Virus record (IMG/VR): IMGVR_UViG_3300032782_000001
Span: 1 to 52,403 of that record
DNA length: 52,403 bases
DNA from: a virus
Strand: one strand, 5' to 3'
Positions 2,739 through 51,925 of the stretch are shown one piece after another. A program made the translations under genes and the position numbers. The stretch's first letter is position 1, and each line of letters begins with the position of its first letter. A model generated the notes under the pieces. That model did not search any database. It was not told where the DNA came from and saw nothing but the letters and a program-made list of their open reading frames with translations.

Positions 2739-2777
2739 AATACTTGGCAGGGGATCGTCGATCCCCTGCCAAGTATT
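2739..2777. repeat. perfect 19-bp inverted repeat AATACTTGGCAGGGGATCG/CGATCCCCTGCCAAGTATT (TGGCAGGGG hairpin family)
   Basis: read directly; same stem motif as 31395-31430 and 44086-44112. Confidence 0.7.
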
Positions 2778-2816
2778 TGTTTCAACCAGGGAATTTGCCC
2801 GTGTCGGGCCGAGCTT

Positions 2817-3272
2817 TCAAGATGGGACGACGAAATTTCCGCTTGAAAGAGCTGCCTGAAGGGACTTCATCATCACTTCCGGCGGGACGACACGCACGTC
2901 TCCCTCGACATCCGCGGCCATCCCAACCAGATCTTCCCAAGTGGCCGGAGGCGTCTCACCCTCCTCCAAATCCCACCCGACTTGGTCCCAAACCCCCTCC
3001 ATGTCGTCGTAAAGACCCATGGAGCCCCTGGTCCCACCCCCATGGATTTTCTCGTCAGCCGCTTCCACCGCGGCAGCCATCTCCGGAGTCCCTCCACCCG
3101 GAACTTTGAAAGCCTGCCATCCCCACGGCCCACTAACCGCCACATACGCGTCGCTCATAGCCGCCAGTACGCGGCGCAGCGCCGCACTTACGCGGACGCG
3201 ACTCGGTTTTTGACTGCGGTCAATTTTATCCGCAATTTGGCGCAAAGAAGCAGCAACCCGAGAAGGCGTCAT
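2817..3272 (-). CDS. hypothetical protein, paralog of 14874..15284 (shared N-terminal 40 aa PSRVAASLRxIADKIDRSxxPSRVRVS)
   Basis: ORF track trimmed to Met6 by comparison with the paralog; the shared 5' region contains an in-frame copy of the cassette at about 3150-3205. Confidence 0.6.
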   Translation of the reverse strand: MTPSRVAASLRQIADKIDRSQKPSRVRVSAALRRVLAAMSDAYVAVSGPWGWQAFKVPGGGTPEMAAAVEAADEKIHGGGTRGSMGLYDDMEGVWDQVGWDLEEGETPPATWEDLVGMAADVEGDVRVVPPEVMMKSLQAALSSGNFVVPS

Positions 3273-3414
3273 GCTTCTCTCCGTCAAAGGAGTTTTAGAA
3301 TCACGTCGCCACTTGCGTCAGCGGACCAAATTTTTGCCCCGCTTGCGTACGCGCGCGCAGGTATGGCAGGTATTTCTGCGATCCCTGCCAGGGATCGAGC
3401 CGATCCTTCTAGTT

Positions 3415-5715: not shown

Positions 5716-6276
5716 TCAACGAACGTCCGGTATTTCGGGGGGTTTGGAAGTTCCGGGTGATTGGGAGTTGGAGGTCCGGAAGTTCGGGGATTTGGAAGTT
5801 TCGGGAGGTTGGGGATGTTCCGTCGGCTCGTCGGGGTATGGGGCTGGTTCAGGCGTCGATTTCGGTCTTTGCCTCCAGCTCCTCCCAGTCTTCTGGCATG
5901 TGATCACCAGGTTTTGAAAATCCCGTTGTTTTCTCGGGATGGTCGGTGGCAGTCTTGCGGGTGTCCGGCGGCTCATTGGTTCTTGAGGGAGTATGATGGG
6001 TGTTTGGTACCTGTCTGTTCCCGGCATTTCAGTCTTTGGATCCTGCATGGCTGGCATTCCGTCTCTTGGGACGAAGCCCTTGTAGCCCAAGTCATGTTCT
6101 CTTGAGTCTGGCCCTGGAACGGGTCCTTCTTGCGTTCCGTTGCCCCTTCCTTCGTCTCGAACCAGTCTGACGGTCCTCTTGGGCCCTAGAACCTCCCCGA
6201 CGCCACGGAAAAACCGCTCCCTTTCGCGGGCGCCCGCGCAGGTGTGCCATATATTGGCCGAACTCCTGTCATACAT
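5716..6276 (-). CDS. hypothetical protein with Pro/Ser-rich low-complexity C-terminus
   Basis: ORF track; no SD or cassette; competing plus ORF 5693..5917. Confidence 0.3.
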   Translation of the reverse strand: MYDRSSANIWHTCAGARERERFFRGVGEVLGPKRTVRLVRDEGRGNGTQEGPVPGPDSREHDLGYKGFVPRDGMPAMQDPKTEMPGTDRYQTPIILPQEPMSRRTPARLPPTIPRKQRDFQNLVITCQKTGRSWRQRPKSTPEPAPYPDEPTEHPQPPETSKSPNFRTSNSQSPGTSKPPEIPDVR

Positions 6277-6432: not shown

Positions 6433-6693
6433 TCAGCTCGACATGATGTTCCATACGACGAATTCGTTGAAGGAGATTTCACGGATGTCGGGTGGAAGAA
6501 TGGTTCCGTCGTCCATTCTTTTGTAGGTTTTGGAGACTCGTTGCCATTCTTCGGCGCAGGTTGGGCAGCAGCTGAAGGTGTTTTTGGTGGTCAGGCCTTG
6601 GAAGTAGACGGAGGTTGGGTTGGGGCAGGGTCCTTTGAAGGACAGGCAGGATTCTGGGTCCCAGGCGAAGTCTTTGGGGTTTCGGACGGTCAT
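6433..6693 (-). CDS. Cys-rich small protein, tail ...NEFVVWNIMSS (tail family)
   Basis: ORF track; ATGA overlap with upstream gene. Confidence 0.55.
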   Translation of the reverse strand: MTVRNPKDFAWDPESCLSFKGPCPNPTSVYFQGLTTKNTFSCCPTCAEEWQRVSKTYKRMDDGTILPPDIREISFNEFVVWNIMSS

Positions 6694-9291: not shown

Positions 9292-9950
9292 ACCTCCACC
9301 ACTTGATATCCGATCTCGCGCGGTTGCCTTTCCTCGTCCAGATAAGCTGAATTGCAGAACTCCATCTCTTGGATGGTTTGGCGACCGAATCCGCCGTGCA
9401 CGTGTCCACTGAGCACGGCTTTCACTCGATGATCCGACTCGTAGAACAGGAAGTTGTACAGGTGAATGTTCCCCCTTTGCAGATCCAGGATCATGCTGGG
9501 CGGACAGTGGGCGAGCAACACGTCCGCCATTTTCAGCTCATCTTGGATCCAACGGAACTCTTGCCACATGTCTTGTGACCGACGTTCCCAGTTCCACTCC
9601 CCTTGAAGGTACGGGATGAAAGGGATCCCGTAGAACGTTCGGTCTTCCCACGTGATCAACTTCTTCGTCACGTTGACGGCGCGGATCCCGCCGGCTTTCA
9701 ACAGATCCTCGACGCGTTCCGGTTCCAGAAAGTCGTGATTTCCCGCCACGAACAGGAACGGCCGGTCTCCAAGCCATTCCTTCAATTTCTTCATCCTCCT
9801 CCGGAGCCAGTCCTCTTGGAACTTGGGCTCGACGGACCAGTCTCCACGCGTCTCGTTCGGCATGAAATCCCCCGAATGGACGACAGGCGCATCCAAATCC
9901 GGCAAATCCGGGAGCCTCCCATGCGTGTCAGAAACGTGGATGAGTTTCAT
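9288..9950 (-). CDS. calcineurin-like metallophosphoesterase
   Basis: motifs IHVSDTHG (DxH), GDF, GNHD, GHVH; ORF track trimmed to Met5 after GGTGAG RBS. Confidence 0.8.
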   Translation of the reverse strand: MKLIHVSDTHGRLPDLPDLDAPVVHSGDFMPNETRGDWSVEPKFQEDWLRRRMKKLKEWLGDRPFLFVAGNHDFLEPERVEDLLKAGGIRAVNVTKKLITWEDRTFYGIPFIPYLQGEWNWERRSQDMWQEFRWIQDELKMADVLLAHCPPSMILDLQRGNIHLYNFLFYESDHRVKAVLSGHVHGGFGRQTIQEMEFCNSAYLDEERQPREIGYQVVEV

Positions 9951-10000
9951 CTCACCAACCAATACGGCTCGACCCGTCGAATTTACGCCGACATCACTTC
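9951..10000 (-). promoter_or_regulatory. conserved upstream cassette
   Basis: minus reading GGCGTAAATTCGACGGGTCGAGCCGTATTGGTTGGTGAG-ATG; its TAA doubles as the stop codon of 9983..10237. Confidence 0.5.
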
Positions 10001-11590: not shown

Positions 11591-11667
11591 GGTGGACCGG
11601 AAGGGATTCGAACCCTCAGTTAGGAAGTTTTTAAAACCTCTGTGTCTGCCTTTTCCACCACCGGTCC
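11591..11667 (-). tRNA. tRNA-like gene, anticodon UAA (Leu-type anticodon but short variable arm)
   Basis: 7/7-bp acceptor GGACCGG/CCGGTCC, T-arm GAGGG-TTCGAAT-CCCTT, anticodon arm GAGGT-TTTAAAA-ACTTC, 3-bp D-stem, 77 nt ending ACC; coordinates approximate. Confidence 0.55.
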
Positions 11668-16359: not shown

Positions 16360-16611
16360 TCAATCGTCCCAACCTTCCGGCATCTTCTCTGAGACGTCCA
16401 GTCCTGCTTTCTCGAGGCTATCCTCGATGGACTGGTAGATTTCGTTGGCCGTCAACAAGGCCTTCCCCTCTCGAATCGAGAGAACGACATCTTCGAGGAG
16501 CGCGCGGACCTCCGCTTCGGAGAGATCCGCGATCGTCTTCTGGGCGACCGACTGCTTCTGAGCGGCTTTCTTCTGAGCGGCTTTCTTCTGAGCGGCTTTC
16601 TTGGTTGCCAT
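16360..16611 (-). CDS. small protein with N-terminal KKAAQ x3 basic repeats (possible DNA-binding)
   Basis: ORF track trimmed to Met9 after GAGGAGAGAACA; 15-nt tandem repeat x3 at 16553-16600. Confidence 0.55.
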   Translation of the reverse strand: MATKKAAQKKAAQKKAAQKQSVAQKTIADLSEAEVRALLEDVVLSIREGKALLTANEIYQSIEDSLEKAGLDVSEKMPEGWDD

Positions 16612-16621
16612 TGTTCTCTCC

Positions 16622-16957
16622 TCAGTCGAACACACCGCGCTGGCAAGCCTCCTCGAGGCTGTAATCTTCCTCGTCTTCCTCGTCTTCCTCGTCCTCGTCG
16701 CTCTCGTAGGCGACTTGCGGAAAGTACACGATGACGTCGCGACCCATCGAATCGCTGTGGGCTCCTTGCAATTCCTCCGCGATCGTCTGCATGTCGCACG
16801 AGACGTCGGCGGCAGCCTGGAAAAGTGCCCCGTAGATCTCGGTGATGCTGGACCCCTCGATGCCGAGGCAATCCTTACCGAACATGAACCGGCCGGAATA
16901 CGACCGGACGTGGAGCTCCGCGGCCTCGGCCAAATCTTGCAATGCGCTCTTCGTCAT
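16622..16957 (-). CDS. hypothetical protein with polyacidic C-terminus (ESDEDEEDEEDEED)
   Basis: ORF track 16622..17236 trimmed to Met94 after GGAGGTGACGAA; TCTTCCTCG x3 tandem repeat on plus strand; palindromic cassette at 16958-17010. Confidence 0.55.
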   Translation of the reverse strand: MTKSALQDLAEAAELHVRSYSGRFMFGKDCLGIEGSSITEIYGALFQAAADVSCDMQTIAEELQGAHSDSMGRDVIVYFPQVAYESDEDEEDEEDEEDYSLEEACQRGVFD

Positions 16958-17797: not shown

Positions 17798-18214
17798 CTA
17801 GGGCTTCCTCCACTTTCCCTCGTACTCATCCCAAACCGCAATTTGCGCGCGAGGTTCGCAGAACTTTGCCTCCCTCACCGTAGCAAAAAAGATAAGCGCT
17901 GCAAAATCATCTCCTTCAGGAGTCCAAGTTCCCGTGGCGACTGGGCCCAACTGCCTGAGGAGCTTGCCATCGGCAGAATACACCGAACCGCGCGCCATGA
18001 CTCTCGCTGAATCACAGTCAACAGGCGGCTCGGCTCGCACGGACTCGGGCCGGTCGGCGCGCGCCAAGGGCCGCGACGGGGCGAGGAAGGGCCGCGACGG
18101 GGCGAGGAAGGGCCGCGACGGGCCGACCGATGCGCGCTCCACACAGCCGATGAGCACTACGCCGATCACGACGAGTACAGCACTTCGACCAGATTGGCTC
18201 CACACCTGGGACAT
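17798..18214 (-). CDS. predicted secreted lipoprotein (signal peptide with LIGC lipobox) with SRPFLAP x3 linker
   Basis: ORF track; GAGGAAGAAGGAAA-ATG; 21-nt tandem repeat at about 18065-18125. Confidence 0.55.
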   Translation of the reverse strand: MSQVWSQSGRSAVLVVIGVVLIGCVERASVGPSRPFLAPSRPFLAPSRPLARADRPESVRAEPPVDCDSARVMARGSVYSADGKLLRQLGPVATGTWTPEGDDFAALIFFATVREAKFCEPRAQIAVWDEYEGKWRKP

Positions 18215-19628: not shown

Positions 19629-20038
19629 GACTCCATGACTCCGCGCACCAGCTTTAGAGCTTTCCTCTTCTGCTTGATGGCTTTATCGTGCTTTTCGAAC
19701 CAATCGGTTCCCTTAATGATGAACCCGATTTCAGAATGCACTGCAGTCCAGAATTTCTCCCAGTCTACATGCCCATCCAACATTTTGTAGATATGGGCTG
19801 TGGCGCGATCTTCCAAGATATCTTCGAGAAACTTGTCTTTAGCCCAGGTTCCTTCCCCTACGAGGGTCAAGAACTCTTGGCCAATCGTGTGGGGGTTCTG
19901 ATTCAGGAACGCGCACGGATCGAGCGAAGGCAGTGTCTTGAGCACGAAATCTTTGGCCCAGAGAGCGAACCACCAGTCGATGAGACTGATGAAGACAGCT
20001 TCCGATCCGGAGATGATTCCCGAATGGATAGACCTCAT
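19625..20038 (-). CDS. hypothetical protein (137 aa), tail ...KLVRGVMES (tail family)
   Basis: ORF track trimmed to Met6 after GGAGGCAATA; cassette boxes at 20039-20085. Confidence 0.55.
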   Translation of the reverse strand: MRSIHSGIISGSEAVFISLIDWWFALWAKDFVLKTLPSLDPCAFLNQNPHTIGQEFLTLVGEGTWAKDKFLEDILEDRATAHIYKMLDGHVDWEKFWTAVHSEIGFIIKGTDWFEKHDKAIKQKRKALKLVRGVMES

Positions 20039-20102
20039 TATTGCCTCCATCATCCAATACGCGCGACCGGACCAAACTTGCCCGGCGACGCCATATTGTC
20101 GC

Positions 20103-20291
20103 CTACGACTCCATGACCTCGTAGATGAGGCACATGGCGATGAACTCTTCTTGAGAAATGCGTAGATCCATCAAGTCAGGATCGTTATCGATTCGGTTCC
20201 CGAAACAGTCAGCACACCATGCAAACGGCTTCCCGTCGAAGACGAATTCTTCCGCTTCGCGGAGACATTGCCTACAAGGAATAGTGTTCAC
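20103..20291 (-). CDS. Cys-rich small protein, tail ...CLIYEVMES (tail family)
   Basis: ORF track; GTG start 9 nt after the upstream TGA. Confidence 0.5.
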   Translation of the reverse strand: MNTIPCRQCLREAEEFVFDGKPFAWCADCFGNRIDNDPDLMDLRISQEEFIAMCLIYEVMES

Positions 20292-20300
20292 GATTTCTAA

Positions 20301-20846
20301 TCAAGATTCGTGGACTTCACGCACGGGATCTTGCTTGTAGATGACCTCGGCCCACCCCTCACCGAGGTAGATCTGACCGTGACCGTCTTCTTCCGTTCCC
20401 TCGCAGAGGGGACACGGGAGGTGTTCGTCCGCGTCCTCACACCCCTCCCAAGAACAAGCAGTCTCGCCAGAACTTGTGAAGTGTGCCACGCGATACCACT
20501 TCCCGTCCTCGTCTTCGATGACTTCAGGTGGAAGACCCCAAGAGCAATCTTGGACGATGGTCCGATATGACACATCGTAGAAATCCGGATAATCCCGCTT
20601 GGCGAGATAATCCGGGATTCCTTCGAACCAGAAAATGTACTGAGCCTGTCCACTCACCGTGTGATTGTTCGGGTCTGACGGGGTGCTGGTCTCGATGACC
20701 ACCCAAGGCTCGTCTTCGAGCTCTCCGCCCGTCAGACCGAAGACTTGCTCCACCCGCTCACGCTCAATGGCTGCGTCTTGGGCCTGGCGCTTACGCTCCA
20801 GTTCCGCCTCGTGATCCTCCACAGCCTTCAAATCCAGCTGCTCCAT
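20301..20846 (-). CDS. acidic, Cys-rich hypothetical protein (181 aa), tail ...DPVREVHES (tail family, His variant)
   Basis: ORF track trimmed to Met4 after GGAGGTGACGACG; cassette at 20847-20890. Confidence 0.6.
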   Translation of the reverse strand: MEQLDLKAVEDHEAELERKRQAQDAAIERERVEQVFGLTGGELEDEPWVVIETSTPSDPNNHTVSGQAQYIFWFEGIPDYLAKRDYPDFYDVSYRTIVQDCSWGLPPEVIEDEDGKWYRVAHFTSSGETACSWEGCEDADEHLPCPLCEGTEEDGHGQIYLGEGWAEVIYKQDPVREVHES

Positions 20847-20888
20847 CGTCGTCACCTCCGCGATTGAATACGACGCCGACTGCTGAAT

Positions 20889-21161
20889 TTACGTCGCGAG
20901 CGCTCCGGCTGCCCAGTGGAGCGTATCTCGAAGCTTTTCGGCTTCCTCCTCGTCTTGCCTATTGTATCCCCACTTGTAAAGCTGACTGTCAATGGCCGCC
21001 GCGAGAGTACCAGCCTTGTCACCTGCTTCATCGAGAAGCTGCTGGAGCCCGGGGCCGGGCGGCAAGACCTCGCGATCCTGAAGCTCCTCCCAAGCCTTTT
21101 GGATGATCTCCTTGAGTTGTCCGTCCGAGAGACTTTCGTAATTGGGTTGACTGGCGTCCAT
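20889..21161 (-). CDS. hypothetical protein (90 aa)
   Basis: ORF track trimmed to Met4; cassette at 21162-21205. Confidence 0.55.
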   Translation of the reverse strand: MDASQPNYESLSDGQLKEIIQKAWEELQDREVLPPGPGLQQLLDEAGDKAGTLAAAIDSQLYKWGYNRQDEEEAEKLRDTLHWAAGALAT

Positions 21162-21203
21162 ATACTGCACCTCCGCGATCGAATACGACGCGGATGTGCG
21201 AAT

Positions 21204-21416
21204 TTACGCCGCTGCCGTGTCCAAGGTTGCAGCTTCTTCTTTTAGAAGCGATGCGGCTTTTTCTGCTATGGTGGCAAGTAAAAGCATTTGCTCGGACGAA
21301 ATTCTCTCAAACCCCTGATTCGAAATTTCGTCTATGTCCCGATCAGGTACTAGCTTCAATACATGACCGGCCAAAAGCATGATCCTGACAAGACACACTT
21401 TGGAATCAATGGTCAT
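21204..21416 (-). CDS. hypothetical protein (70 aa)
   Basis: ORF track; AGGAGGGGGAGTC-ATG. Confidence 0.55.
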   Translation of the reverse strand: MTIDSKVCLVRIMLLAGHVLKLVPDRDIDEISNQGFERISSEQMLLLATIAEKAASLLKEEAATLDTAAA

Positions 21417-21427
21417 GACTCCCCCTC

Positions 21428-21584
21428 CTAAATTACTTCAATATTCGCCATCATCGTCGAGGACGACTACCTCTCCGGGCCCCAATTTCTGATTCGGCGA
21501 GTATTGATTCACGGCGGGTTCGTGAACAATAGGTGACGAATCAGCGTCAACGGGGTCTGAGATTTCCGAATGTGTGGTCTCCAT
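21428..21584 (-). CDS. possible small acidic protein (51 aa) at the edge of the divergence region
   Basis: hand-translated; no SD; coordinates approximate. Confidence 0.25.
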
Positions 21585-21759
21585 GAACTTACATCTCATT
21601 GAGAATTCACCAACGCCTTGCGCCGAGACTTAGGGAGAAGTATACTTTAGTAAAGGGACGAAACCACCGGCGGGAATCGGCATCCAATCAGACATCATCT
21701 GTAGGCAGACGATGAAAGTTTCGCGGTCCGGAACGTACCAGATCCTGGAGGGCGTGCGT

Positions 21760-22140
21760 ATGCGCCAGGAGATGAGAACGAAGCCGTCCGTGGAGGCCGG
21801 CATCAAGTCCGATTCCACGGACGGTCGAGCGCGTGTTGTCGACTACCAGCCGGGCAATGGTACGAGGTATGTCCTCGTTTTGACGAGCCTTTCAGGTCAT
21901 CCGAGCCAAGAGAAAGTTCTGACTCGAGAAGATCAGTGTGCTCTCGTCTGGGTTCAAAATTTCAAGCGTGGATGGATCGCTGGATTCGGCGGTACGAATC
22001 TCGTTCATTATTCTGACATCCAGAAGCATCTAGGTTGCTCCATCATGGATGCCGTCTCTTTGGCGGAAATTATTGGATTCCTTCTCAATCGACCGTGCGT
22101 TTCGGTAGATGATTTTCTCCGCGAAAAGAACGCCGTTTAG
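21760..22140 (+). CDS. hypothetical protein (126 aa)
   Basis: ORF track 21712..22140 trimmed to Met17 after GGAGGGCGTGCGT. Confidence 0.5.
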   Translation: MRQEMRTKPSVEAGIKSDSTDGRARVVDYQPGNGTRYVLVLTSLSGHPSQEKVLTREDQCALVWVQNFKRGWIAGFGGTNLVHYSDIQKHLGCSIMDAVSLAEIIGFLLNRPCVSVDDFLREKNAV

Positions 22141-22215
22141 GGTGGCATACCCCGTTCTAATCCCTGCCAGGGATTATGTAACCTGGTCCTAAGCTCCTTT
22201 TGAAATGCTTAGGGC

Positions 22216-22281
22216 ATGGCAGCTCAGACTGTTGCAATCACTTTCGGCACCACAGGACTCGGTCCGTATTGCAGGCCGTAA
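22216..22281 (+). pseudogene. 22-codon duplicate of the 5' end of gene 22426..22830 together with its leader (MAAQTVAITFGTTGLGPYCRP*)
   Basis: about 50-nt repeat CTCCTTTTG.GAAT..T.GGG..TATGGC.GCTCA.AC at 22186-22235 and 22395-22445; coordinates approximate. Confidence 0.4.
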
Positions 22282-22425
22282 ACATCGTTATGGGCTTAAC
22301 ATCCAAAGTGGAACAGAGTTTTATAAATATTTGAAACGAGAAAATTTCCCTGGAATCTTCCGGGTTCTTTGTTTTAATCATAACTGCGGCAAGCTTCACT
22401 AAACTCCTTTTGGGAATTTGGGTGT

Positions 22426-22830
22426 ATGGCCGCTCAAACGGTATCGATCTCGGTCGGATGTCAGTGGACGCCGCCTTTCGCGGTGCTCAACTCGGGCAAC
22501 AGCTCTTTCAACCTGAGCGCCCAGTACAACGCCCAAAATGTCGGGCAGATCGACATTCCTGGAGCAACGACTACGCCGACGGTCTTCCCGATTCCCTTTG
22601 GGACCGTGGCGAGTTGCAAGATGCTCATCATCAAGAACTGCATGTCGAGTGATATCGGCGTCCGATTCAATGGAGCAGTCGCAAATGAGTTCCAGGTGGC
22701 GCCTGGAGGTATGGTGATGGTTTCGATGCCGCAAGCACCTGTCACCAATCCTGTGACTTCAATTTCTGTCGTGACGACGTCCGTCCCCGGAGCGACCGAA
22801 TATGTCAGCTTCTGGGTTTTTGGCGACTGA
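22426..22830 (+). CDS. hypothetical Thr/Val/Pro-rich protein (134 aa), possibly structural or secreted
   Basis: ORF track; followed by a 9-bp hairpin AAGTGGCAG..CTGCCACTT at 22843-22871. Confidence 0.6.
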   Translation: MAAQTVSISVGCQWTPPFAVLNSGNSSFNLSAQYNAQNVGQIDIPGATTTPTVFPIPFGTVASCKMLIIKNCMSSDIGVRFNGAVANEFQVAPGGMVMVSMPQAPVTNPVTSISVVTTSVPGATEYVSFWVFGD

Positions 22831-22844
22831 AGTAAAGTGGCAGA

Positions 22845-23090
22845 GTGAAAGATCCTGCCACTTGTAACCATTTCTTTGAATGGGAGTTCAACCCTCCTCC
22901 GAGGTCAACTCTCACGCGGAAGGAAATCCGCGACTTGGTTCGTTCGGAAGAGGCTTTGAAAGCCTATTGCGAAAAGGACGCTGCGGAGTTTAAAGCCCGG
23001 GGTCCAGCTGATCCGAAGGAATTCGGTCGGATTCTTTGCAGGTGGTGTCGGAAAGAACGTCAAGACTCCGATTTCCAACGGTTAGCGTAA
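22845..23090 (+). CDS. hypothetical protein (81 aa); start uncertain because the first codons lie in the terminator hairpin
   Basis: ORF track. Confidence 0.3.
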   Translation: MKDPATCNHFFEWEFNPPPRSTLTRKEIRDLVRSEEALKAYCEKDAAEFKARGPADPKEFGRILCRWCRKERQDSDFQRLA

Positions 23091-23131
23091 ATTCGGCACT
23101 CCACCGCGTACTCGCGGTCCGGAGGTGACGA
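23062..23131 (+). promoter_or_regulatory. conserved upstream cassette
   Basis: CGTAAATTCGGCACTCCACCGCGTACTCGCGGTCCGGAGGTGACGA-ATG. Confidence 0.5.
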
Positions 23132-23731
23132 ATGTCACTTTCATGTGTGATAACTGTCAAAGGCCACGGACGAGATAAGCCTCAGCTGGGCTCGTTGAAG
23201 AACGACCAGACACGGGTTGTAAAGGACTTCATCAAGGGTGTCGATTCTTACTATCGGACCGTATTCAATCACGTCCAATCGTGCCCCAAATGCGACCCTC
23301 AAGAAGTCCTTGAGGCTTATCTCACGGATCGGAATCGTCCCAAGTTCGGCGGCCTGACTTCAGCGGGCTTGGCGAAACTTGCCCTGCGTTACGAGAAGAA
23401 TTTCGGCAACCGAGTGTCTCAAAAGACTGTGCGGGAATTCCTCTGGCGCGTCGGATCAGTTGACCGTTTGACAGAATTTGCATCCCGGCTCGAGCCAGAG
23501 GAAGTGGTCTCCGGCGTTTACCTCATGTTCCAGCGCTGGGTGAGTGAACCTAGCTCATTTAATGAGACTTGGGTTAACTCTTGTGTGGAGGCTTCCAAGA
23601 ATTTCCAGTGCCCCTACGCGCACATCTTCGAAAGTGTGTTCATTCTCAGGAAGAACGGGGTAACCGTGCTTCCACCCGAACGGGACGAGCTCATCAAGCT
23701 CGCGACCGTCGCTTTCGTCATGGACTGCTAG
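23132..23731 (+). CDS. hypothetical protein (199 aa), tail ...VAFVMDC
   Basis: ORF track. Confidence 0.6.
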   Translation: MSLSCVITVKGHGRDKPQLGSLKNDQTRVVKDFIKGVDSYYRTVFNHVQSCPKCDPQEVLEAYLTDRNRPKFGGLTSAGLAKLALRYEKNFGNRVSQKTVREFLWRVGSVDRLTEFASRLEPEEVVSGVYLMFQRWVSEPSSFNETWVNSCVEASKNFQCPYAHIFESVFILRKNGVTVLPPERDELIKLATVAFVMDC

Positions 23732-24174
23732 TGGAGGGGGACTTCAGTCAGCTCTGACATCTGGAGACGCATCCGTTCTACGTGATCTGAAAATGCGAGG
23801 TAATCACCTCGAGAAGCTGCCCAGCAAGCAGCTTCTCCCCAAAAAGCGCATGCCTCAAGAGCGAGGCGCCAATGGCGAGATGCTCGAGGTGCTTCATGGA
23901 CACGAATCCTTTGAAGAATTCTACATGCTGCTGCGAGGGTCCGTCGACATTCTACGGGGCCAAGTGATCGAAGATGGCCACTCATTTCAGGGAGACCAGC
24001 CGCATCAGTCATACACGGCATGAGTTGACGGACAACCGAATCAGCTTCAGGCAAGAGCTCCATGCTTTGGGAAGCACGCGGGTACAAAGACTTCATTCCA
24101 ACAAGTTACAACAGAGCCGCGAGCTCCGCAAATTCGACAGATCGGCACGTATGCAATTGTCAGGAGGTGCCGAC

Positions 24175-24801
24175 ATGTCGGACAACAAGAAGGGTTCGAG
24201 TTACGAGAGGATTTACCAAGCACTGCTGGACACGACGGAGGGCAAGGGGATCCAGGCGCGGGTGAAGCAGGCCATCGAGAACGTTCGGGTCACGGGCTAC
24301 CAGTTCAAGCTCAACAGCTCGGACGACGGACGGCCCGTCGCCGTGCCGCATTTCACGACGAACTGGGCGAAGGAACGGTCCTTCACGAAGAACAACATCT
24401 ACTGCAGCGTCTACGATCTCTTCACTACCGAAGAGTTCAATGCCATCGTGGAGGCCCACTTCGAGAAGGATGTGAAGACGTTCTTCTGCCGCAAGGACAC
24501 CGTGCTCAAGGGTTGCCGTGACGAGCGTGGCCGCAAGCACATCTCGTCGTTCGCTGCCTGGGCAGGGACTCAGATCGAAAATCTGACCGCCGACATCCGG
24601 GACGCAGCCGTCATCCGCCTCGAAAGTCAAGCTACGGAGCTTGCGTCCACCGCGGATTTCTTGCAGGACAGGCACAACGCGCTCCTGCGGTTCTGCCACG
24701 ACGAGGTGGTTCAGGTCATGTCGCGCTACGCGTTTCTCGGGACGGACGTCCTGAAGGGCGCACTCAAGGAGTTCTGCGTGGCAGATGTGATGGAGGCGTG
24801 A
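24175..24801 (+). CDS. hypothetical protein (208 aa), tail ...EFCVADVMEA (tail family)
   Basis: ORF track 23974..24801 trimmed to Met68 after AGGAGGTGCCGAC; cassette at 24125-24174. Confidence 0.6.
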   Translation: MSDNKKGSSYERIYQALLDTTEGKGIQARVKQAIENVRVTGYQFKLNSSDDGRPVAVPHFTTNWAKERSFTKNNIYCSVYDLFTTEEFNAIVEAHFEKDVKTFFCRKDTVLKGCRDERGRKHISSFAAWAGTQIENLTADIRDAAVIRLESQATELASTADFLQDRHNALLRFCHDEVVQVMSRYAFLGTDVLKGALKEFCVADVMEA

Positions 24802-24802
24802 C

Positions 24803-25360
24803 ATGACACGGGAAGACGTCTTGATGAGTCTATCGGTCAAGGCTCTCCTGGCCGTCAACCCGAACTTGAGGAATTCTGACACCTGGAAGGAGGACGTACG
24901 CAAAACCATTCGGTACGTCCTCCAATGCCAGGTGTCAGGGTCCCATTTCAGCGACACTGTGCCTCCCCTCCCTGTTGTCGTGCTCAAGAGCGGCAAAGGA
25001 GACAAGAAGTGCCATGTCGTTCCAGGCTCGGCAGTGAAAGCCATTATCCACGGAGGCACATTCTTCGAACCGGTAGGCCCTATCCGTGATGCCTGTCTGG
25101 AGGCGCTGTATAAAGTCTTGGAACCGGACGGGAAACGTGTAGAAACGATGGTGGTGGAGGCCGCTCAAAAACTACTGAACGACCCGGTACGGGTTCAAAA
25201 GAAAAAGGACCAGATCGCCAGCCAGAGGGCCGCTTACAAGGCCAAAAAGACCGAGCAGCTCCGCGGCGCGTTTCGCGACTACTTGAAAGATGGATGGACG
25301 GAGGAGGAAATCCTCCGAATCCTGCATGAAGCACAAGTGGCGGAGGTCATGGATTCTTGA
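24803..25360 (+). CDS. hypothetical protein (185 aa), tail ...EAQVAEVMDS (tail family)
   Basis: ORF track; start 1 nt after upstream TGA. Confidence 0.6.
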   Translation: MTREDVLMSLSVKALLAVNPNLRNSDTWKEDVRKTIRYVLQCQVSGSHFSDTVPPLPVVVLKSGKGDKKCHVVPGSAVKAIIHGGTFFEPVGPIRDACLEALYKVLEPDGKRVETMVVEAAQKLLNDPVRVQKKKDQIASQRAAYKAKKTEQLRGAFRDYLKDGWTEEEILRILHEAQVAEVMDS

Positions 25361-25794: not shown

Positions 25795-25891
25795 TCGACT
25801 GTAAAGTGCTCGGCCCCAACTTCAAAAGCAGTGCGGCGCGCAGCCGCAAATTCGCCGCTGCTCCGCGTATCGGGCAGTGGAGGTGACGCGA

Positions 25892-27001
25892 ATGCTCACG
25901 AACATCAACGAGATCGATCAAGAGACGCTCATGCGGGTTCTCCGCTTCACGATCAAGTCGGGGGGCAATCTCATGACCTTCGGGCCGGCCGGCATCGGCA
26001 AGACCGAGATGGCCATGCAGGCCTGCAAGGAGGAGGGTTACAGGTTCGTCTATCTGAACCTGTCCGTCCTCGAGGCTCCGGACATGGTGGGCCTGCCGCA
26101 GGTCCAGGATGGCAAGACGAGCTATGCTCCGCCGGAGACCATCCCGCTGCGCGACGACAACCAGAAGAAGGTGGTGCTGCTCGTGGATGAGGTCGACAAG
26201 GCCAAGCCCGAGCTGCAGAACCCCTGCCTCGAGCTCTTCCAGTTCCGCGCCATGAACGGTCGCGAGATGAACATCCACAGCGTCATCGCGACGGGCAACC
26301 TGCCCGACGAGGGCGCCTTCTCGCAGCCCGTCAGCCACGCGCTCACGAACCGGTGCCTCGTGTTCAGGGTCACTCACGCCTTCGATCCGTGGCTGCAGTG
26401 GGCGACCGGCCCCGCGGCGGTCCATCCTCTCATCGTGGGCTTCCTCAGCAAGAACCCGGAGTACCTGCTCATGCCGGATGCCTCGGGTGACACCACGGCT
26501 TACTGCCATCCGAGCCCTCGCCAGTGGACCCTCGCCGCGAAGGACCTGGAGCACACGTCGACGGCGGACCACATCGACTTCCAGACGCTCCTCATCGCGG
26601 GTCGCGTCGGGACGGCGGCCGCCGTCAAGTTCCGGGTCTGGCTGGAGCACTACCGCCACGTCGAGCCCCTCATCGAGGCGCTCGTCAAGAAGGGCGAGCA
26701 CCCGGACATCAAGAACATGGCGATCGACCGCCAGTTCGTTTGTGCCCTGAGCGCCGTGGGTGCCATCGCAGCCGAATGCCGCAAGACGCTCGCCCCTGGC
26801 AAGGACAAGGAAGAGCAGAAGAAGAAGACCCACAAGTACACGGAGAACGTCTTCACGTGGCTCGGGAAGCTCCCCTCGGAGTTCGTCATCGGGGCCGTCA
26901 AGACGGTCCTCAACATGAAGATGATCCAGGACTACGACCTCACGAAGATCGCTCCGTTCATGCAGGAGTACATGAAGGTCAGGCAGGCCTTCAAGGACTG
27001 A
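25892..27001 (+). CDS. MoxR/AAA_5-type AAA+ ATPase
   Basis: Walker A GPAGIGKT, Walker B VVLLVDEVDKA; ORF track trimmed to Met6 after GGAGGTGACGCGA; cassette at 25840-25891; 11-bp perfect hairpin CCGAGTCTGCG..CGCAGACTCGG at 27027-27083. Confidence 0.8.
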   Translation: MLTNINEIDQETLMRVLRFTIKSGGNLMTFGPAGIGKTEMAMQACKEEGYRFVYLNLSVLEAPDMVGLPQVQDGKTSYAPPETIPLRDDNQKKVVLLVDEVDKAKPELQNPCLELFQFRAMNGREMNIHSVIATGNLPDEGAFSQPVSHALTNRCLVFRVTHAFDPWLQWATGPAAVHPLIVGFLSKNPEYLLMPDASGDTTAYCHPSPRQWTLAAKDLEHTSTADHIDFQTLLIAGRVGTAAAVKFRVWLEHYRHVEPLIEALVKKGEHPDIKNMAIDRQFVCALSAVGAIAAECRKTLAPGKDKEEQKKKTHKYTENVFTWLGKLPSEFVIGAVKTVLNMKMIQDYDLTKIAPFMQEYMKVRQAFKD

Positions 27002-29899: not shown

Positions 29900-31387
29900 A
29901 TGCAGATGTCCGATGTCTCCAGGCTGAAAGACCCGAAGCGGGTCTGCACGAAGGAGGACGGGTCTTACGACCACGCCCGTCTCGCCCTCTTGCAAAAGAA
30001 GGTTTCCGACTGCATGACGAAGATGTTCCGCAAGCCCGAGGGCGGCGGAAACCCCTTCCTCTACGCCCTCACCCTGCCCAAGCCGCACGAGCTCGCCATC
30101 GAGCTCCCCGGGCCCAATGGGAAGGACTTCCACACGGCTGCCACCGACGGCAAGAAGTTCTGGTGGCACCCGGACTTCCTCGAGAAGCTGGACTCGGAAG
30201 AGGTGCCCACGGTCATGGAGCACGAGGGTTATCACGTGATCCTCTTCCATCCGCAACGTGGCGTGGGGACCAACCCCCGCATCTTCAACTGGGCGATCGA
30301 CTACGTTGTCAACGCCATCATCGAGACCAATCACAAGCAGCTCAACCGCAAGGGCAAGCTTTGGGGCGGGAACCTCGGCGAGCCGCTCTCGTTCGCGGAT
30401 CTTCTCTCGTACATCGATGGAAATTCGGAGCTCCCGAAGGACAAGAATTCCATCTTCGTGGACGTCTCGCTTCACGGACGGAGTCCGGAGTCGATCTACG
30501 AAGAGATCATGGATCATTGGGACAAGAGTCCGCGCAAGTGCTCTCTCTGTACGTGCCTGTCCATCGATCCGAAGACTGGCAAGCCCATCCACGCCCTTCA
30601 CGGCAAGAGCCCAGTGCCGCCGGAGAAACCGCACGACCCCCACTGCGACGGGACCTGCTGTCCCAAGTGTGGCGTCAAGTCGGACCCGCTCGGGTCGATG
30701 GACGCTCACATCCCGGGCGCCCTGACGAAAGATGAGGTCATGGCGGATATCATGCGCGCCAGGGACCAGTCGACGGCCATGAGGGGCACCGTTCCCTCCG
30801 AAGTGGAAGATGCGCTCAAAGAGCTGATGAAGCCTACGCTGAAGTTCACGGACATCGTCAAGTCCTGCTTCATGCGCAAGATCCAGGATGCTGGGATGAA
30901 GAACGACTGGAAGCGCTGCCGACGCCGGTGGTTGGCCTCCAATCCCAAGCAGTATCTCCCGAGGCGCCACACTCATCGGCCCCGGTGGCTTGCGATGGTG
31001 GACACCAGCGGCTCCATGCAGGACGATGATCTCCTCTACGGAATCTCTCAGCTCAAGGTTCTGGGAGACAACACGGAAGGTTACGTCATCCCCTGCGACG
31101 CATCTCCGAAATGGGATGCCATGCAGAAGATCGACAAGGCCACGGACCTGCAGAGGACCAAGATCGTCGGGCGCGGAGGAACGGTCTTCGATCAGTTCTT
31201 CCAGGACTTCCCGAAGAAGATCGGGACGGACTTCGACGTGGTGGTCATCATCACGGACGGAGACTGCGGGACGATCCCCCTGCACCTCAAGCCGCCGTGC
31301 GATGTCGTCTGGGTCATCACCCGGACCATGAAGGAGTATAAGCCCAGCTTCGGACGCGTGGCCCCGCTCCGCCCCTCTCGGATGTGA
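29900..31387 (+). CDS. VWA-domain protein with N-terminal HExxH metallopeptidase-like module (DUF2201-like partner of MoxR ATPases)
   Basis: HEGYHV motif, MIDAS DTSGSM; GGAGGTGACGAA-ATG; cassette at 29850-29899. Confidence 0.75.
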   Translation: MQMSDVSRLKDPKRVCTKEDGSYDHARLALLQKKVSDCMTKMFRKPEGGGNPFLYALTLPKPHELAIELPGPNGKDFHTAATDGKKFWWHPDFLEKLDSEEVPTVMEHEGYHVILFHPQRGVGTNPRIFNWAIDYVVNAIIETNHKQLNRKGKLWGGNLGEPLSFADLLSYIDGNSELPKDKNSIFVDVSLHGRSPESIYEEIMDHWDKSPRKCSLCTCLSIDPKTGKPIHALHGKSPVPPEKPHDPHCDGTCCPKCGVKSDPLGSMDAHIPGALTKDEVMADIMRARDQSTAMRGTVPSEVEDALKELMKPTLKFTDIVKSCFMRKIQDAGMKNDWKRCRRRWLASNPKQYLPRRHTHRPRWLAMVDTSGSMQDDDLLYGISQLKVLGDNTEGYVIPCDASPKWDAMQKIDKATDLQRTKIVGRGGTVFDQFFQDFPKKIGTDFDVVVIITDGDCGTIPLHLKPPCDVVWVITRTMKEYKPSFGRVAPLRPSRM

Positions 31388-31394: not shown

Positions 31395-31430
31395 ATATAT
31401 GGCAGGGGTCGTTACGACCCCTGCCATATA
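31395..31430. repeat. TGGCAGGGG hairpin family member (ATATATGGCAGGGGTCG-TTA-CGACCCCTGCCATATA)
   Basis: read directly; intergenic, followed by GGGGAGGT-ATG of the next gene. Confidence 0.7.
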
Positions 31431-44085: not shown

Positions 44086-44112
44086 TGGCAGGGGTTTACT
44101 AAACCCCTGCCA
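44086..44112. repeat. TGGCAGGGG hairpin family member (TGGCAGGGGTTTA-C-TAAACCCCTGCCA)
   Basis: read directly; intergenic. Confidence 0.7.
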
Positions 44113-51130: not shown

Positions 51131-51415
51131 ATGACCTCTGTAATCGGAATCGAACAAGTTATTGCTTGCCTCTGTCAAAGGAAAATTTCTTTGGTCGATG
51201 AAATTCATCAGCGGGACGAAGCCGATATGGCTCTGGCGGATCTCTTCGGGGGATCCGAAATCATGTTGGACCTTTCTAAAGAATTCCGATCAGATGGTGC
51301 CTGGTTGATTGTCACCTGGTGGTTAGAAACTGAAATGGAACAATCTCAATTTGAGGTTCCTGTGGAAATGCTTTGTCCTGGAAACGAATCTGTTTTGATT
51401 GTTATGCTTTCTTAA
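51131..51415 (+). CDS. acidic hypothetical protein (94 aa)
   Basis: ORF track; ACGGAGGGCTA-ATG. Confidence 0.55.
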   Translation: MTSVIGIEQVIACLCQRKISLVDEIHQRDEADMALADLFGGSEIMLDLSKEFRSDGAWLIVTWWLETEMEQSQFEVPVEMLCPGNESVLIVMLS

Positions 51416-51496
51416 ATATATGGCATATATTAAAACGACCCTTCTGCCATATATTCACGGTATGCCACATATTTAAACGATCCCTGCCATGCGTCC

Positions 51497-51925
51497 ATGC
51501 GATTTCAGTTCTTGAGCGTAAGATCTGACGTGGGGCAATATCGTATTGACCCGTCTCTCTTACCGGATTTGAGTGAGTTTGATACTACTAAGCCCGAACT
51601 TCAAACCCCTGCTCTTCCATCAGAGCACGTTTCGATCGTCTCAGACGGTATATTAGGTGAAGAATTCGGTGGTTGTTGGACGGTCGTTGACCGAGGGGAG
51701 CGGAGACCTCCAGGACAAAAACGATATGGGGTTGTGTCGTTTGATCATCAGCCGGCTAGGGTAATCATTCGCCCAGATCCATGGCGAGCAAAGAACGGAG
51801 CCAAGATCACTGTCGATCCCTCATCTCCTCCTGTTATTCTTTCTGAAGGAGGCCCTATGACGTATGAAGAAGCGTGCGAATCTGCTCGCCGCATGAATGA
51901 GATTTTGGAAGTTCACGAGTCTTAA
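51497..51925 (+). CDS. hypothetical protein (142 aa), tail ...NEILEVHES (tail family, His variant)
   Basis: ORF track; preceded by degenerate TGCCAT repeats at 51420-51490. Confidence 0.5.
   Translation: MRFQFLSVRSDVGQYRIDPSLLPDLSEFDTTKPELQTPALPSEHVSIVSDGILGEEFGGCWTVVDRGERRPPGQKRYGVVSFDHQPARVIIRPDPWRAKNGAKITVDPSSPPVILSEGGPMTYEEACESARRMNEILEVHES

What the first reader, a model, noticed from the sequence alone, without database searches (positions are those of the whole stretch)
21420..23131. AT-rich divergence region where the two gene blocks meet; contains a duplicated leader plus 5' gene fragment
Leftward genes end and rightward genes begin here. GC drops and promoter-like AT stretches appear (22285-22400). 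A roughly 50-nt segment comprising the RBS region and first 22 codons of gene 22426-22830 (MAAQTV...) is duplicated 210 nt upstream, ending in a stop. A CCCTGCCAGGG palindrome sits at about 22161.

This is a candidate origin or early-promoter switch region. The duplicate may act as a decoy leader or upstream ORF.
Basis: partly seen in the sequence, partly recalled or inferred. Interest (0 to 1): 0.55.

Follow-up and report, generated by a model that had tools for sequence, protein, structure and literature searches.

The report
Leftover gene start from phage recombination
A small virus-particle-type gene in a very large uncultivated phage-like genome is preceded by a dead second copy of its own start region, most likely a scar of DNA exchange with a related phage; it is not a replication origin or a conserved control device.

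Summary
Gene orientation switches at 21600-21711. A 63-nt block (30-nt leader, ATG and 11 codons) occurs twice, exactly 210 nt apart (22186-22248 and 22396-22458). About 147 nt of AT-rich sequence with no detectable relative lies between the copies. Only 11 codons are homologous, not 22. The AT-rich patch lies inside the rightward gene block, not where the two blocks meet.

All nine distinct related loci have a single copy. The upstream fragment sits at the ancestral position. It resembles orthologues in other genomes (45/63 nt) more than its own downstream copy (40/63). It differs from the L001 orthologue mostly at synonymous sites. So it was part of a working gene until recently.

My best reading is a recombination scar. 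A diverged relative's leader and gene start, perhaps its whole gene, displaced the resident gene and left its 5' end behind. The fragment's start region folds into a 9-bp hairpin and is probably silent.

I found no DnaA boxes, iterons or sigma-70-like promoters. The gene encodes a jelly-roll protein (pLDDT 96). The case is ordinary in kind.

A separate observation may matter more: 35 otherwise unrelated ORFs in the window end in V-x-x-V-M-E/D-S.

The parts
21438..21599 (-). Last gene of the leftward block: a small acidic protein ending ...VVLDDDGEY
   Evidence: ORF. Homologous C-termini in L001 (VVVEDDDGYED), L004 (VIVEDDDGETD) and L007 (IITDDDGEF).
21600..21711 (.). The true divergent intergenic spacer (112 nt), GC 0.46-0.50, with no recognisable signals
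   Evidence: No sigma-70-like site, no DnaA box, no tandem repeat. The equivalent spacer is about 50 nt in L004 and about 70 nt in L001.
21712..22140 (+). First rightward gene, 142 aa, function unknown
   Evidence: 54% identical to the L004 orthologue and 47% to the L001 orthologue. No Pfam or PHROG hit.
22143..22176 (.). Degenerate member of the TGGCAG...CTGCCA hairpin family. It contains the 19-nt palindrome TAATCCCTGCCAGGGATTA (22158-22176).
   Evidence: ATCCCTGCCAGGGAT recurs exactly at 3381-3395. L001 has a degenerate element at the same position, between the upstream gene and the leader (9935-9983).
22186..22248 (+). Upstream (relic) copy: leader GTCCTAAGCTCCTTTT, a 14-nt spacer, ATG at 22216 and 11 codons (MAAQTVAITFG)
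   Evidence: 45/63 identical to the true gene starts of L001 and L004, but only 40/63 to its own downstream copy. It folds as a 9-bp hairpin, 22186-22194 with 22207-22215, at -20.3 kcal/mol.
22216..22281 (+). 21-codon ORF (MAAQTVAITFGTTGLGPYCRP*) that starts at the relic ATG. Only the first 11 codons are homologous to the gene.
22249..22395 (.). Orphan AT-rich spacer 'X' (about 147 nt, GC down to 0.34) between the two copies
   Evidence: No similarity to gene bodies, flanks, the rest of the window or any locus. No exact match in the viral or genome collections. No Rfam hit. TATAAATA at 22322 is the only copy in the window.
22349..22374 (+). Weak terminator-like hairpin plus T-run inside X
   Evidence: One search found it, but the region has 4 such sites against 2.8 expected. 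-8.4 kcal/mol, z -1.2, and 26 of 200 shuffles fold as well. It is not significant on its own.
22205..22402 (+). 65-aa open frame across the relic and X. It ends exactly at the TAA of the second leader motif. It may be the 3' remnant of a donor upstream gene. Coding status uncertain.
   Evidence: Codon score -0.02, against 0.28 +/- 0.18 for genes. No homologue.
22238..22399 (-). 53-aa antisense open frame, called as a gene in L002. Probably spurious.
   Evidence: Its only database match is itself. Codon score +0.03. Its apparent SD is simply the reverse complement of the conserved CTCCTTTT motif.
22396..22458 (+). Downstream (functional) copy: leader TCACTAAACTCCTTTT, a 14-nt spacer, ATG at 22426 and 11 codons (MAAQTVSISVG)
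   Evidence: No stable structure (z +0.26).
22426..22830 (+). 134-aa gene encoding a single jelly-roll beta-sandwich protein, probably a virion or fibre-associated module
22835..22863 (+). 9-bp hairpin AAGTGGCAG...CTGCCACTT followed by a T-rich tract, just after the gene's stop codon. A member of the TGGCAG...CTGCCA family.
   Evidence: -14.8 kcal/mol, z -3.05, 0 of 200 shuffles as stable.

Best explanation
The block 22186-22458 is a lineage-specific recombination scar at the 5' end of a conserved jelly-roll (virion-type) gene.

In this phage group the gene travels with a fixed left end. That end consists of the last codon and stop codon of whatever gene lies upstream (TCC TAA/TAG), a pyrimidine/T-rich tract (CTCCTTTT), 13-14 variable nucleotides, and the ATG.

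In the ancestor of this genome the resident gene started at 22216, directly after the intergenic hairpin element, as it does in relative L001. DNA from a diverged relative was then joined in. It carried about 147 nt of unrelated AT-rich sequence (possibly the tail of that relative's upstream gene), that relative's own leader, and at least the start of its gene (perhaps the whole gene). The left junction was non-homologous, after codon 11 of the resident gene.

The resident leader and its first 11 codons were left behind as a pseudo-start. The protein is now made from the downstream copy (ATG 22426). The relic can at most give a 21-residue peptide. Because its start region is closed by a 9-bp hairpin, it is probably translated little or not at all.

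Shown: the duplication, its absence from relatives, the similarity pattern, the hairpin prediction and the protein fold. Inferred: the direction and mechanism of the exchange, and the silence of the relic.
For: (1) Every relative has one copy, whatever its distance: L001, L003, L004/L005, L007, L008, L009, L010/L011. The gap from the upstream gene to the ATG is 12-148 nt in relatives (12 to about 100 nt where the upstream gene is on the same strand, plus the 148-nt divergent spacer of L007) and 286 nt here.
(2) The two copies are as diverged as orthologues from different genomes. They share 40/63 nt. The relic shares 45/63 with each of L001 and L004, and those two share 46/63 with each other. 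Local alignment scores are 55 and 53 against 32.
(3) The relic differs from the L001 gene start by 4 synonymous changes and 1 non-synonymous change in 11 codons. It keeps the 16-nt motif of L004 exactly. It therefore evolved under protein-level constraint, as part of a working gene, until recently.
(4) The relic occupies the ancestral position: upstream gene, then the TGGCA...CTGCCA element, then the leader, as in L001.
(5) The start of the functional copy (QTVSISVG) shares the serine at residue 7 and the S-V-G motif with L003 (QTVSLSVG), whose protein is the closest to the window's (80% amino-acid identity). The relic (QTVAITFG) groups with L001, L004 and L006.
(6) In L004, L008 and L010 the TAA/TAG of the motif is the real stop codon of three different upstream genes. 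The leader therefore belongs to the gene cassette. In the second window copy, the frame that ends at that TAA is open for 69 codons through X.
(7) The neighbourhood is variable. Between the 134-aa gene and the conserved 199/200-aa gene, L001 has two minus-strand genes where the window has 300 nt with an unconserved ORF.
(8) The relic's start region forms a 9-bp hairpin (-20.3 kcal/mol, 7 of 200 shuffles as stable). The functional copy does not.
Against: - No donor lineage carrying X was found in any collection, so the direction of the exchange is inferred.
- The difference between 45/63 and 40/63 rests on about 5 positions.
- Along the gene body, similarity to L003 versus L004 is mosaic, so the right-hand boundary of the incoming DNA is undefined.
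- The relic still has an intact motif, spacing and ATG. Selection on it would also produce this.
- Only one genome carries the arrangement, in two assemblies that may come from one sample. Selection cannot be tested by comparison.
Confidence: 0.6

Rival explanations
1. In-situ partial tandem duplication. The leader and gene start (or the whole gene) duplicated within this lineage. Most of the first copy was then deleted or overwritten, and the two copies diverged in place.
For: It is the simplest way to obtain a direct repeat. The offset of 210 nt is a multiple of three. A weak match AAAGTGGAACAG at 22305 to AAAGTGGCAGAG at 22834, just after the gene's stop, could be a trace of a first copy's 3' flank (family D11).
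Against: The copies are only 63% identical, with 5 synonymous differences in 11 codons. The relic is closer to orthologues from other genomes than to its neighbour. A neutral fragment old enough to reach that divergence should also have lost its motif, spacing and ATG. X shows no significant similarity to the gene body or its 3' flank (p=0.18-0.79).
Confidence: 0.15
2. Functional leader device. The relic acts as an upstream ORF, leader peptide or decoy ribosome-entry site. Together with the hairpin and T-run in X, it attenuates or times expression of the jelly-roll gene.
For: The motif is intact, with the exact 14-nt spacing and an ATG. A short ORF is followed 68 nt later by a terminator-like hairpin and T-run. 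The gene is bracketed by hairpins, as if it were insulated.
Against: The arrangement is absent from all relatives. The terminator-like hairpin is weak and no better than chance (z -1.2; 4 sites against 2.8 expected). The relic's start region is sequestered in a 9-bp hairpin. The peptide beyond residue 11 has no homologue. No alternative antiterminator pairing was found, and there is no Rfam match.
Confidence: 0.12
3. Insertion of a small gene cassette. X holds a real ORFan: either the 53-aa minus-strand ORF 22238..22399 or the 65-aa plus-strand ORF 22205..22402. It would have integrated by recombination at the leader, as proposed for PeSL mini-circles, duplicating the leader on both sides.
For: Both frames are open through an AT-rich stretch. 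A gene caller predicted the 53-aa ORF in L002, and it has AAGGAG 4 nt before its GTG. The 65-aa frame ends at the motif's TAA, as real upstream genes do in L004, L008 and L010. Direct repeats flanking an insert fit the PeSL model (PMC2839356).
Against: Neither ORF has a homologue. Codon-usage scores of -0.02 and +0.03 lie near the 5th percentile of real genes. The apparent SD is the reverse complement of a motif that is conserved for plus-strand reasons in relatives lacking any antisense gene. The 65-aa ORF has no SD, and its ATG lies inside the relic hairpin.
Confidence: 0.08
4. Replication origin at the point where the gene blocks diverge.
For: The strand switch and the local cumulative GC-skew minimum fall at about 21,000-21,500. 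An AT-rich patch lies nearby.
Against: There are no DnaA boxes and no iterons or tandem repeats. The divergent spacer is short (112 nt; about 50 nt in L004) and not AT-rich. The AT-rich patch is lineage-specific. The sign of the skew follows the coding strand. Only 12% of the contig is visible. A more iteron-like cluster exists at 51416-51472.
Confidence: 0.03
5. Assembly artefact: a chimeric join of two strain variants of the same locus.
For: The two copies look like two alleles of one site, which is what a strain-collapse error could produce.
Against: An identical sequence appears in a second assembly made by a different pipeline (L002). X belongs to neither allele. The reading frames on both sides are intact.
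Confidence: 0.02

Closest known systems
PeSL (promoter-early stem-loop) regulatory cassettes of T4-type phages (Arbiol et al. 2010, PMC2839356; Comeau et al. 2014, PMC4122927)
   Same: These are intergenic cassettes that run from the stop codon of the upstream gene to the SD and start codon of the downstream gene. They contain stem-loops, sit in variable regions and are proposed as preferred recombination sites that shuffle gene modules. Integration at such a site leaves the cassette duplicated on both sides of the insert. In the window, the leader also begins with the upstream gene's stop codon, strong hairpins bracket the gene, the neighbourhood differs between relatives, and the repeat flanks an insert.
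   Different: No sigma-70-like promoter is present. The repeated unit extends 11 codons into the gene. The leader motif is specific to this gene (2-3 copies in 52 kb) rather than dispersed about 50 times per genome. The two copies are 37% diverged, so they did not arise by exchange between identical repeats. The genome is unrelated to T4 (no DNA match in the phage collection).
Mosaic phage genomes with gene remnants from illegitimate recombination (general model of tailed-phage evolution; stated from my own knowledge, not tested here)
   Same: A novel joint falls at an arbitrary position inside a gene and leaves a truncated relic next to an intact, functionally equivalent allele from a diverged relative.
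   Different: Relics are usually recognised from pairs of sequenced relatives. Here the donor is unknown and the relic is only 63 nt.
Leader-peptide transcription attenuators (trp, erm type)
   Same: A short ORF upstream of a gene, followed by a hairpin and T-run.
   Different: The ORF is a copy of the gene's own N-terminus. The hairpin is weak. No alternative pairings were found. The arrangement is not conserved in relatives.
Integrative elements that carry a replacement end of their target gene (for example prophages in tRNA genes)
   Same: The incoming DNA supplies a functional copy of the interrupted gene end. The displaced original end remains as a direct, diverged repeat on the other side of the insert.
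   Different: No integrase is present. The insert is only about 150-210 nt. The 5' end of a protein gene is replaced, rather than the 3' end of a tRNA gene.

Membership tests
PeSL-type mobile regulatory cassette | Sigma-70-like early promoter (-35/-10) within the cassette | tested here: not met
   0 promoter-like sites in 21000-23500, against 1.3 expected.
PeSL-type mobile regulatory cassette | Stable stem-loop in the intergenic cassette | tested here: inconclusive
   Strong hairpins of the TGGCAG...CTGCCA family occur after stop codons (-21 to -33 kcal/mol), and one follows the gene. The element before the relic is degenerate. The hairpin inside X is weak.
PeSL-type mobile regulatory cassette | Motif repeated many times, concentrated in variable regions next to ORFans | tested here: not met
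   The leader motif occurs 2 times in 52 kb, or 3 with the gapped variant at 3285-3298. The hairpin family occurs 5 times.
PeSL-type mobile regulatory cassette | Insertions, deletions or replacements between relatives located at the cassette | tested here: met
   The 210-nt extra block sits at the leader. The upstream neighbours of the leader differ in L004, L008 and L010. The downstream slot differs between the window and L001.
Leader-peptide attenuator / regulatory upstream ORF | Short translated ORF upstream of the regulated gene | tested here: inconclusive
   A 21-codon ORF exists, but its start region is paired in a 9-bp hairpin. Translation cannot be tested here.
Leader-peptide attenuator / regulatory upstream ORF | Intrinsic terminator between the leader ORF and the gene, with a competing antiterminator | tested here: not met
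   The hairpin at 22349-22364 is -8.4 kcal/mol, z -1.2. No competing structure stands out in the fold of 22141-22470.
Leader-peptide attenuator / regulatory upstream ORF | Conservation of the arrangement in related genomes | tested here: not met
   One copy only in L001, L003, L004/L005, L007, L008, L009 and L010/L011.
Replication origin | Initiator binding repeats (DnaA boxes or iterons) | tested here: not met
Replication origin | AT-rich unwinding element next to the repeats | tested here: inconclusive
   An AT-rich patch exists at 22261-22420. However, it lies between two co-directional genes and is absent from relatives.
Replication origin | Genome-wide skew inflection | not testable with these tools
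   Only 52 kb of a 436-kb contig is available. The local minimum coincides with the coding-strand switch.
Programmed translational bypass (T4 gene 60 type) | Identical take-off and landing codons, with a stop codon directly after take-off | tested here: not met
   The codons are GGC (22246) and GGA (22456). The codon after take-off is ACC, not a stop. The gap is 210 nt, and the second copy has its own ATG.
Self-splicing intron | Group I or group II RNA structure between the repeats | tested here: not met
   No Rfam match at E<=1 in 21400-22900 apart from a 27-nt chance hit. At 210 nt the segment is also too short (own knowledge).

The most novel reading that the evidence does not exclude
The leader that begins with a stop codon (TCC-TAA/TAG, CTCCTTTT, 13-14 nt, ATG), together with the TGGCAG...CTGCCA hairpins, could be the portable ends of gene cassettes in an uncultivated lineage of very large phages. 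That would be a promoter-independent counterpart of the T4 PeSLs. The tandem leaders in the window would then be a captured intermediate of such an exchange. In the stronger version, the relic start and the AT-rich insert have been co-opted as an insulator or upstream-ORF device that sets the timing of a structural gene embedded among early-type genes.
Probability: 0.15. Interest if true: 0.55.

Novelty: new member of a known kind. Interest (0 to 1): 0.25.

Why it matters
On its own this is a small example of how phage genes are swapped. It catches the junction of an allele or cassette replacement. It also shows that the unit of exchange includes the leader and the preceding stop codon. That point is useful for annotating mosaic boundaries in huge-phage metagenome assemblies, and for avoiding calls of spurious small genes: a pipeline predicted a 53-aa antisense 'gene' across the scar. 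It does not identify an origin or a new regulatory mechanism. The surrounding genome looks more interesting than the finding itself. About a third of its ORFs share a C-terminal V-x-x-V-M-E/D-S tail, and a family of very stable hairpins punctuates the genes.

Tried and rejected
- Relatives in large collections. Protein-pattern scans of viral contigs, metagenome contigs and genome contigs found nothing. A degenerate DNA pattern for leader plus start found nothing. Exact pieces of X found nothing. blastn of 20000-25000 against phage records found nothing. Relatives came only from the protein database and the contig look-up.
- Homologues of the 142-aa protein and of the 53-aa antisense ORF. Each matched only itself.
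- Extending the duplication beyond codon 11, or finding a trace of the gene body or 3' flank in X. Nothing was significant.
- Pfam and PHROGs for all genes around the site. No hits. PDB by sequence profile gave none.
- First structure model from 6 sequences. It was unusable (pLDDT 46), so I repeated it with 70 sequences (pLDDT 96).
- T4-like late promoter. TATAAATA occurs once in the window, at 22322, but nothing else links this genome to T4. I set it aside as a coincidence.
- The leader motif as a general promoter or RBS signal. CTCCTTT precedes only this gene (twice) and one other ORF, at 3285-3298(-).
- Translational bypass, intron, DGR-type repeat, shufflon and phase variation by repeat recombination. 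These were rejected on sequence grounds: codon mismatch, no RNA family hit, differences not specific to adenines, no inverted repeats, and a longest identical run of only 9 nt.
- Literature search for the shared C-terminal tail. Nothing relevant turned up.
Full report
**What is in the sequence**

The window is part of a 436-kb contig. It has a mean GC of 0.54 and many small genes without database matches. It also encodes a MoxR-like AAA ATPase, a DUF2201 VWA/metallopeptidase protein, an ATP-dependent DNA ligase and one tRNA. A syntenic relative, L001, carries GIY-YIG and LAGLIDADG homing-endonuclease genes. The content is that of a very large phage or phage-like element. This is an inference.

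The leftward gene block ends with 21438..21599(-). This gene encodes a small acidic protein whose C-terminus (..DDDGEY) is conserved in L001, L004 and L007. The rightward block begins with a 142-aa gene at 21712..22140. The true divergent spacer is therefore 21600-21711. It is 112 nt long with GC 0.46-0.50. It has no sigma-70-like site, no DnaA box and no tandem repeat.

They sit between the 142-aa gene and the 134-aa gene at 22426..22830, which run in the same direction.

**The duplication**

Two blocks of 63 nt lie exactly 210 nt apart, at 22186-22248 and 22396-22458. Each block consists of:
- a leader, (G)TCC/TCAC-TAA-G/A-CTCCTTTT;
- a 14-nt spacer of unrelated sequence;
- an ATG and 11 codons, MAAQTVAITFG in the first block and MAAQTVSISVG in the second.

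The blocks are 40/63 identical. The two diagnostic patterns occur nowhere else in the window. blastn gives E=0.003. The local alignment score is 32, above all 300 shuffles (maximum 28).

The upstream ORF runs for 21 codons to a TAA at 22279-22281. After codon 11 there is no significant similarity to the gene, its flanks, the rest of the window or any relative. So the statement about '22 codons' is not correct: 11 codons are homologous.

A second assembly, L002, is identical over the whole region.

**Comparison with relatives**

The 134-aa protein has homologues at 55-80% identity. It belongs to a family with 243 cluster representatives. I recovered genomic DNA for nine distinct related loci: L001, L003, L004/L005, L006, L007, L008, L009 and L010/L011. 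Every one has a single gene start. In L006 only 84 nt upstream are visible. The distance from the upstream gene to the ATG is 12-148 nt in relatives (12 to about 100 nt where the upstream gene is on the same strand, plus the 148-nt divergent spacer of L007), against 286 nt here.

The leader motif is conserved at a fixed distance of 13-14 nt from the ATG, down to 42-46% protein identity:
- CTCCTTTT in the window (both copies), L001, L003 and L004;
- CCTTCTTTT in L008;
- CCCTTAAAT in L010, and GCCTTAAAT in L009, where it lies further from the ATG.

In L004, L008 and L010 the TAA/TAG of the motif is the real stop codon of three different upstream genes. The leader therefore belongs to the gene as a cassette whose left edge is the preceding stop codon.

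**Which copy is which**

The upstream fragment is more like the true gene starts of L001 and L004 than like its own downstream copy. It shares 45/63 nt with each of them and 40/63 with its neighbour. Alignment scores are 55 and 53 against 32. L001 and L004 share 46/63 with each other.

Against L001 the fragment shows four synonymous changes and one non-synonymous change in 11 codons. It matches the 16-nt motif of L004 exactly. A neutral fragment would not keep this pattern for long. The fragment was therefore part of a working gene until recently.

The fragment also sits at the ancestral position, directly after the degenerate TGGCA...CTGCCA element that follows the upstream gene, as in L001.

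The start of the functional copy (QTVSISVG) shares the serine at residue 7 and the S-V-G motif with L003 (QTVSLSVG), whose protein is the closest to the window's (80% amino-acid identity). The fragment (QTVAITFG) groups with L001, L004 and L006.

The simplest account is this. DNA from a diverged relative was joined to the resident genome by a non-homologous junction after codon 11 of the resident gene. That DNA carried X, the relative's own leader and at least the start of its gene. The frame that ends at the TAA of the second motif is open for 69 codons through X. This fits X being the tail of the donor's upstream gene. However, codon usage is ambiguous and no donor was found. The right-hand boundary of the incoming DNA cannot be placed, because similarity along the gene body is mosaic.

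**Present-day function**

The fragment's leader folds into a 9-bp hairpin, GUCCUAAGC with GCUUAGGGC. It reaches to within one nucleotide of the AUG (-20.3 kcal/mol; 7 of 200 shuffles fold as well). The functional copy is unstructured (z +0.26). I infer that the relic start is used little or not at all.

The terminator-like hairpin in X (22349-22364 plus a T-run) is weak: -8.4 kcal/mol, z -1.2. The count of such sites in the region is at chance level. X may still dampen read-through from the 142-aa gene, and the gene is followed by a good hairpin at 22835-22863 (z -3.05). But there is no positive evidence for an attenuator, and the arrangement is not conserved.

I rejected bypass, intron and phase-variation readings on sequence grounds. 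See the membership tests.

**The gene**

Some family members carry an inserted domain. Others carry 350-490-residue C-terminal extensions that look like fibres or spikes. A virion or fibre-associated role is likely but not shown.

**The palindrome**

CCCTGCCAGGG is the core of TAATCCCTGCCAGGGATTA at 22158-22176. ATCCCTGCCAGGGAT recurs exactly at 3381-3395. The sequence ATCCCTGCCA is the right arm of a family of very stable hairpins, TGGCAGGG(G/A)T-N7-A(C/T)CCCTGCCA. Members lie at 2745, 3364, 31400 and 44086, with a shorter variant at 22838 and a copy at L001 19103. That is 5 in the window against 0.07 expected. They sit just after stop codons.

A second cassette on the minus strand has the same layout as the finding:
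- palindrome and hairpin at 3364-3395;
- CTAAAACTCCTTTG at 3285-3298;
- ATG at 3272 and a 151-aa ORF;
- a 19-bp hairpin at 2745-2771.

These elements resemble, in role but not in sequence, the PeSL cassettes of T4-type phages. PeSLs run from the upstream stop codon to the downstream start and are proposed to mediate modular shuffling (PMC2839356). Membership fails on the defining sigma-70 promoter and on copy number.

**Origin hypothesis**

The local skew minimum at about 21,000-21,500 coincides with the coding-strand switch. The sign of the skew follows gene orientation elsewhere in the window. Without initiator sites, and with a short GC-normal divergent spacer that shrinks to about 50 nt in L004, nothing points to an origin. 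The whole-contig skew cannot be computed here.

**Verdict**

The specific interpretations (origin, decoy leader) are not supported. The feature is best read as a recent recombination scar at a portable gene start. This is a known kind of event in phage evolution, caught here at nucleotide resolution. Interest is low to moderate.

Noticed in passing
window-wide. Stop codons at 6690, 6944, 7156, 7960, 8160, 8699, 13278, 19225, 19425, 19625, 20103, 37410, 37666, 38445 (-) and at 23731, 24801, 25360, 25418, 25794, 27379, 29833, 31741, 32070, 34809, 35245, 36020, 41723, 42852, 44084, 44581, 46512, 47328, 47603, 48557, 51120 (+). Also L001 stops at 4604, 5528, 11874, 11878, 19587.: 35 open frames end in the same C-terminal peptide, V-x-x-V-M-[E/D]-[S/A/C]*. 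I estimate this is about a third of the plausible genes in the window. Position -7 is V or I in 33 of 35, -4 is V in 32 of 35, -2 is E or D in 34 of 35, and -1 is S in 30 of 35. M at -3 was part of the search pattern. The motif is often preceded by E-[IV]-[ST]-x-E-E-[FY]-[LIV]. I estimate that about 1 such ending would be expected by chance among the 779 frames. Ser is encoded by both TCN and AGY, and Val by all four codons, so the constraint acts on the protein. Outside the tail the proteins are unrelated: only one pair matches at E<1e-3. 30 of 35 stop with TGA, and 26 of 35 have an overlapping ATG, GTG or TTG. There is no Pfam match. Relatives share the trait, for example L010 VHES*. This looks like a lineage-wide C-terminal tag (sorting, packaging or degradation signal?) and seems more remarkable than the finding itself.
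   Followed up: partly
window 2745-2771, 3364-3390, 22838-22860, 31400-31426, 44086-44112; L001 19103-19129; L002 13308-13334: A family of very stable hairpins, TGGCAGGG(G/A)T-N7-A(C/T)CCCTGCCA, often extended by ATAT...(C/T)ATAT. There are 5 in the window against 0.07 expected. Energies are -21 to -33 kcal/mol, z -5 to -9. They sit immediately after stop codons and before the next gene's RBS, and one is conserved after the DUF2201 gene in L001. There is no U-tract. Their role is unknown: terminator, RNA processing site, promoter or recombination site.
   Followed up: partly
window 51301-51510, especially 51416-51472: An AT-rich stretch (GC down to 0.32) holds four closely spaced copies of TGCCA(C/T)ATAT, plus ATCCCTGCCA at 51480. 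The motif is enriched window-wide (13 against 2 expected) and also forms the 3' flank of the hairpins. The cluster looks like iterons and is a better candidate for an origin or regulatory hub than the region in the finding.
   Followed up: no
window 2745-3395 (-): A second gene cassette with the same architecture as the finding: palindrome ATCCCTGCCAGGGAT and a hairpin, then CTAAAACTCCTTTG, 12 nt, an ATG (3272), a 151-aa ORF with no family match, and a 19-bp perfect hairpin. This suggests a small class of genes that share these signals.
   Followed up: partly
leader regions of the window gene and of L001, L003, L004, L008 (positions -17 to +7 relative to the ATG): Each relative has a different small hairpin over the SD or start codon: L008 ACCUC/GAGGU, L004 ACCGG/CCGGU, L001 GCCAUGC/GCAUGGC, and L003 GAACGCU/AGCGUUC with the AUG in the loop. 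The window's functional copy has none. This may be translational coupling or control linked to the upstream stop codon. It was not tested for covariation.
   Followed up: no
proteins P0015, P0036, P0037, P0044, P0051, P0059 (205-256 aa) and P0119, P0135, P0137 (489-624 aa): Members of the 134-aa jelly-roll family with a domain of about 80-120 residues inserted in one loop, or with long C-terminal extensions resembling fibres or spikes. This suggests that the small protein is the stand-alone form of an N-terminal anchor or structural module.
   Followed up: no
window 22831-23131; L001 10418-11228: A variable slot lies between the 134-aa gene and the conserved 199/200-aa gene. In the window it is 300 nt with an 81-aa ORF that is not conserved and was not called in L002. 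L001 has two minus-strand genes there. L006 has an unrelated 82-aa gene.
   Followed up: partly
window 16555-16602, 16665-16707, 18066-18126, 5733-5813: Short perfect or near-perfect tandem repeats: 15 nt x3.2, 9 nt x3.2, 21 nt x2.9 and 24 nt x2.9. They lie in the leftward block, probably inside coding sequence.
   Followed up: no
window 11591-11667 (-), 25877-27001, 29900-31387, 45017-46285: tRNA-Leu(TAA), a MoxR-like AAA_5 ATPase (phrog_1297), a DUF2201 VWA/metallopeptidase-like protein (phrog_1314) and an ATP-dependent DNA ligase. The ATPase and the DUF2201 protein are also found, in the same order, in relative L001.
   Followed up: no
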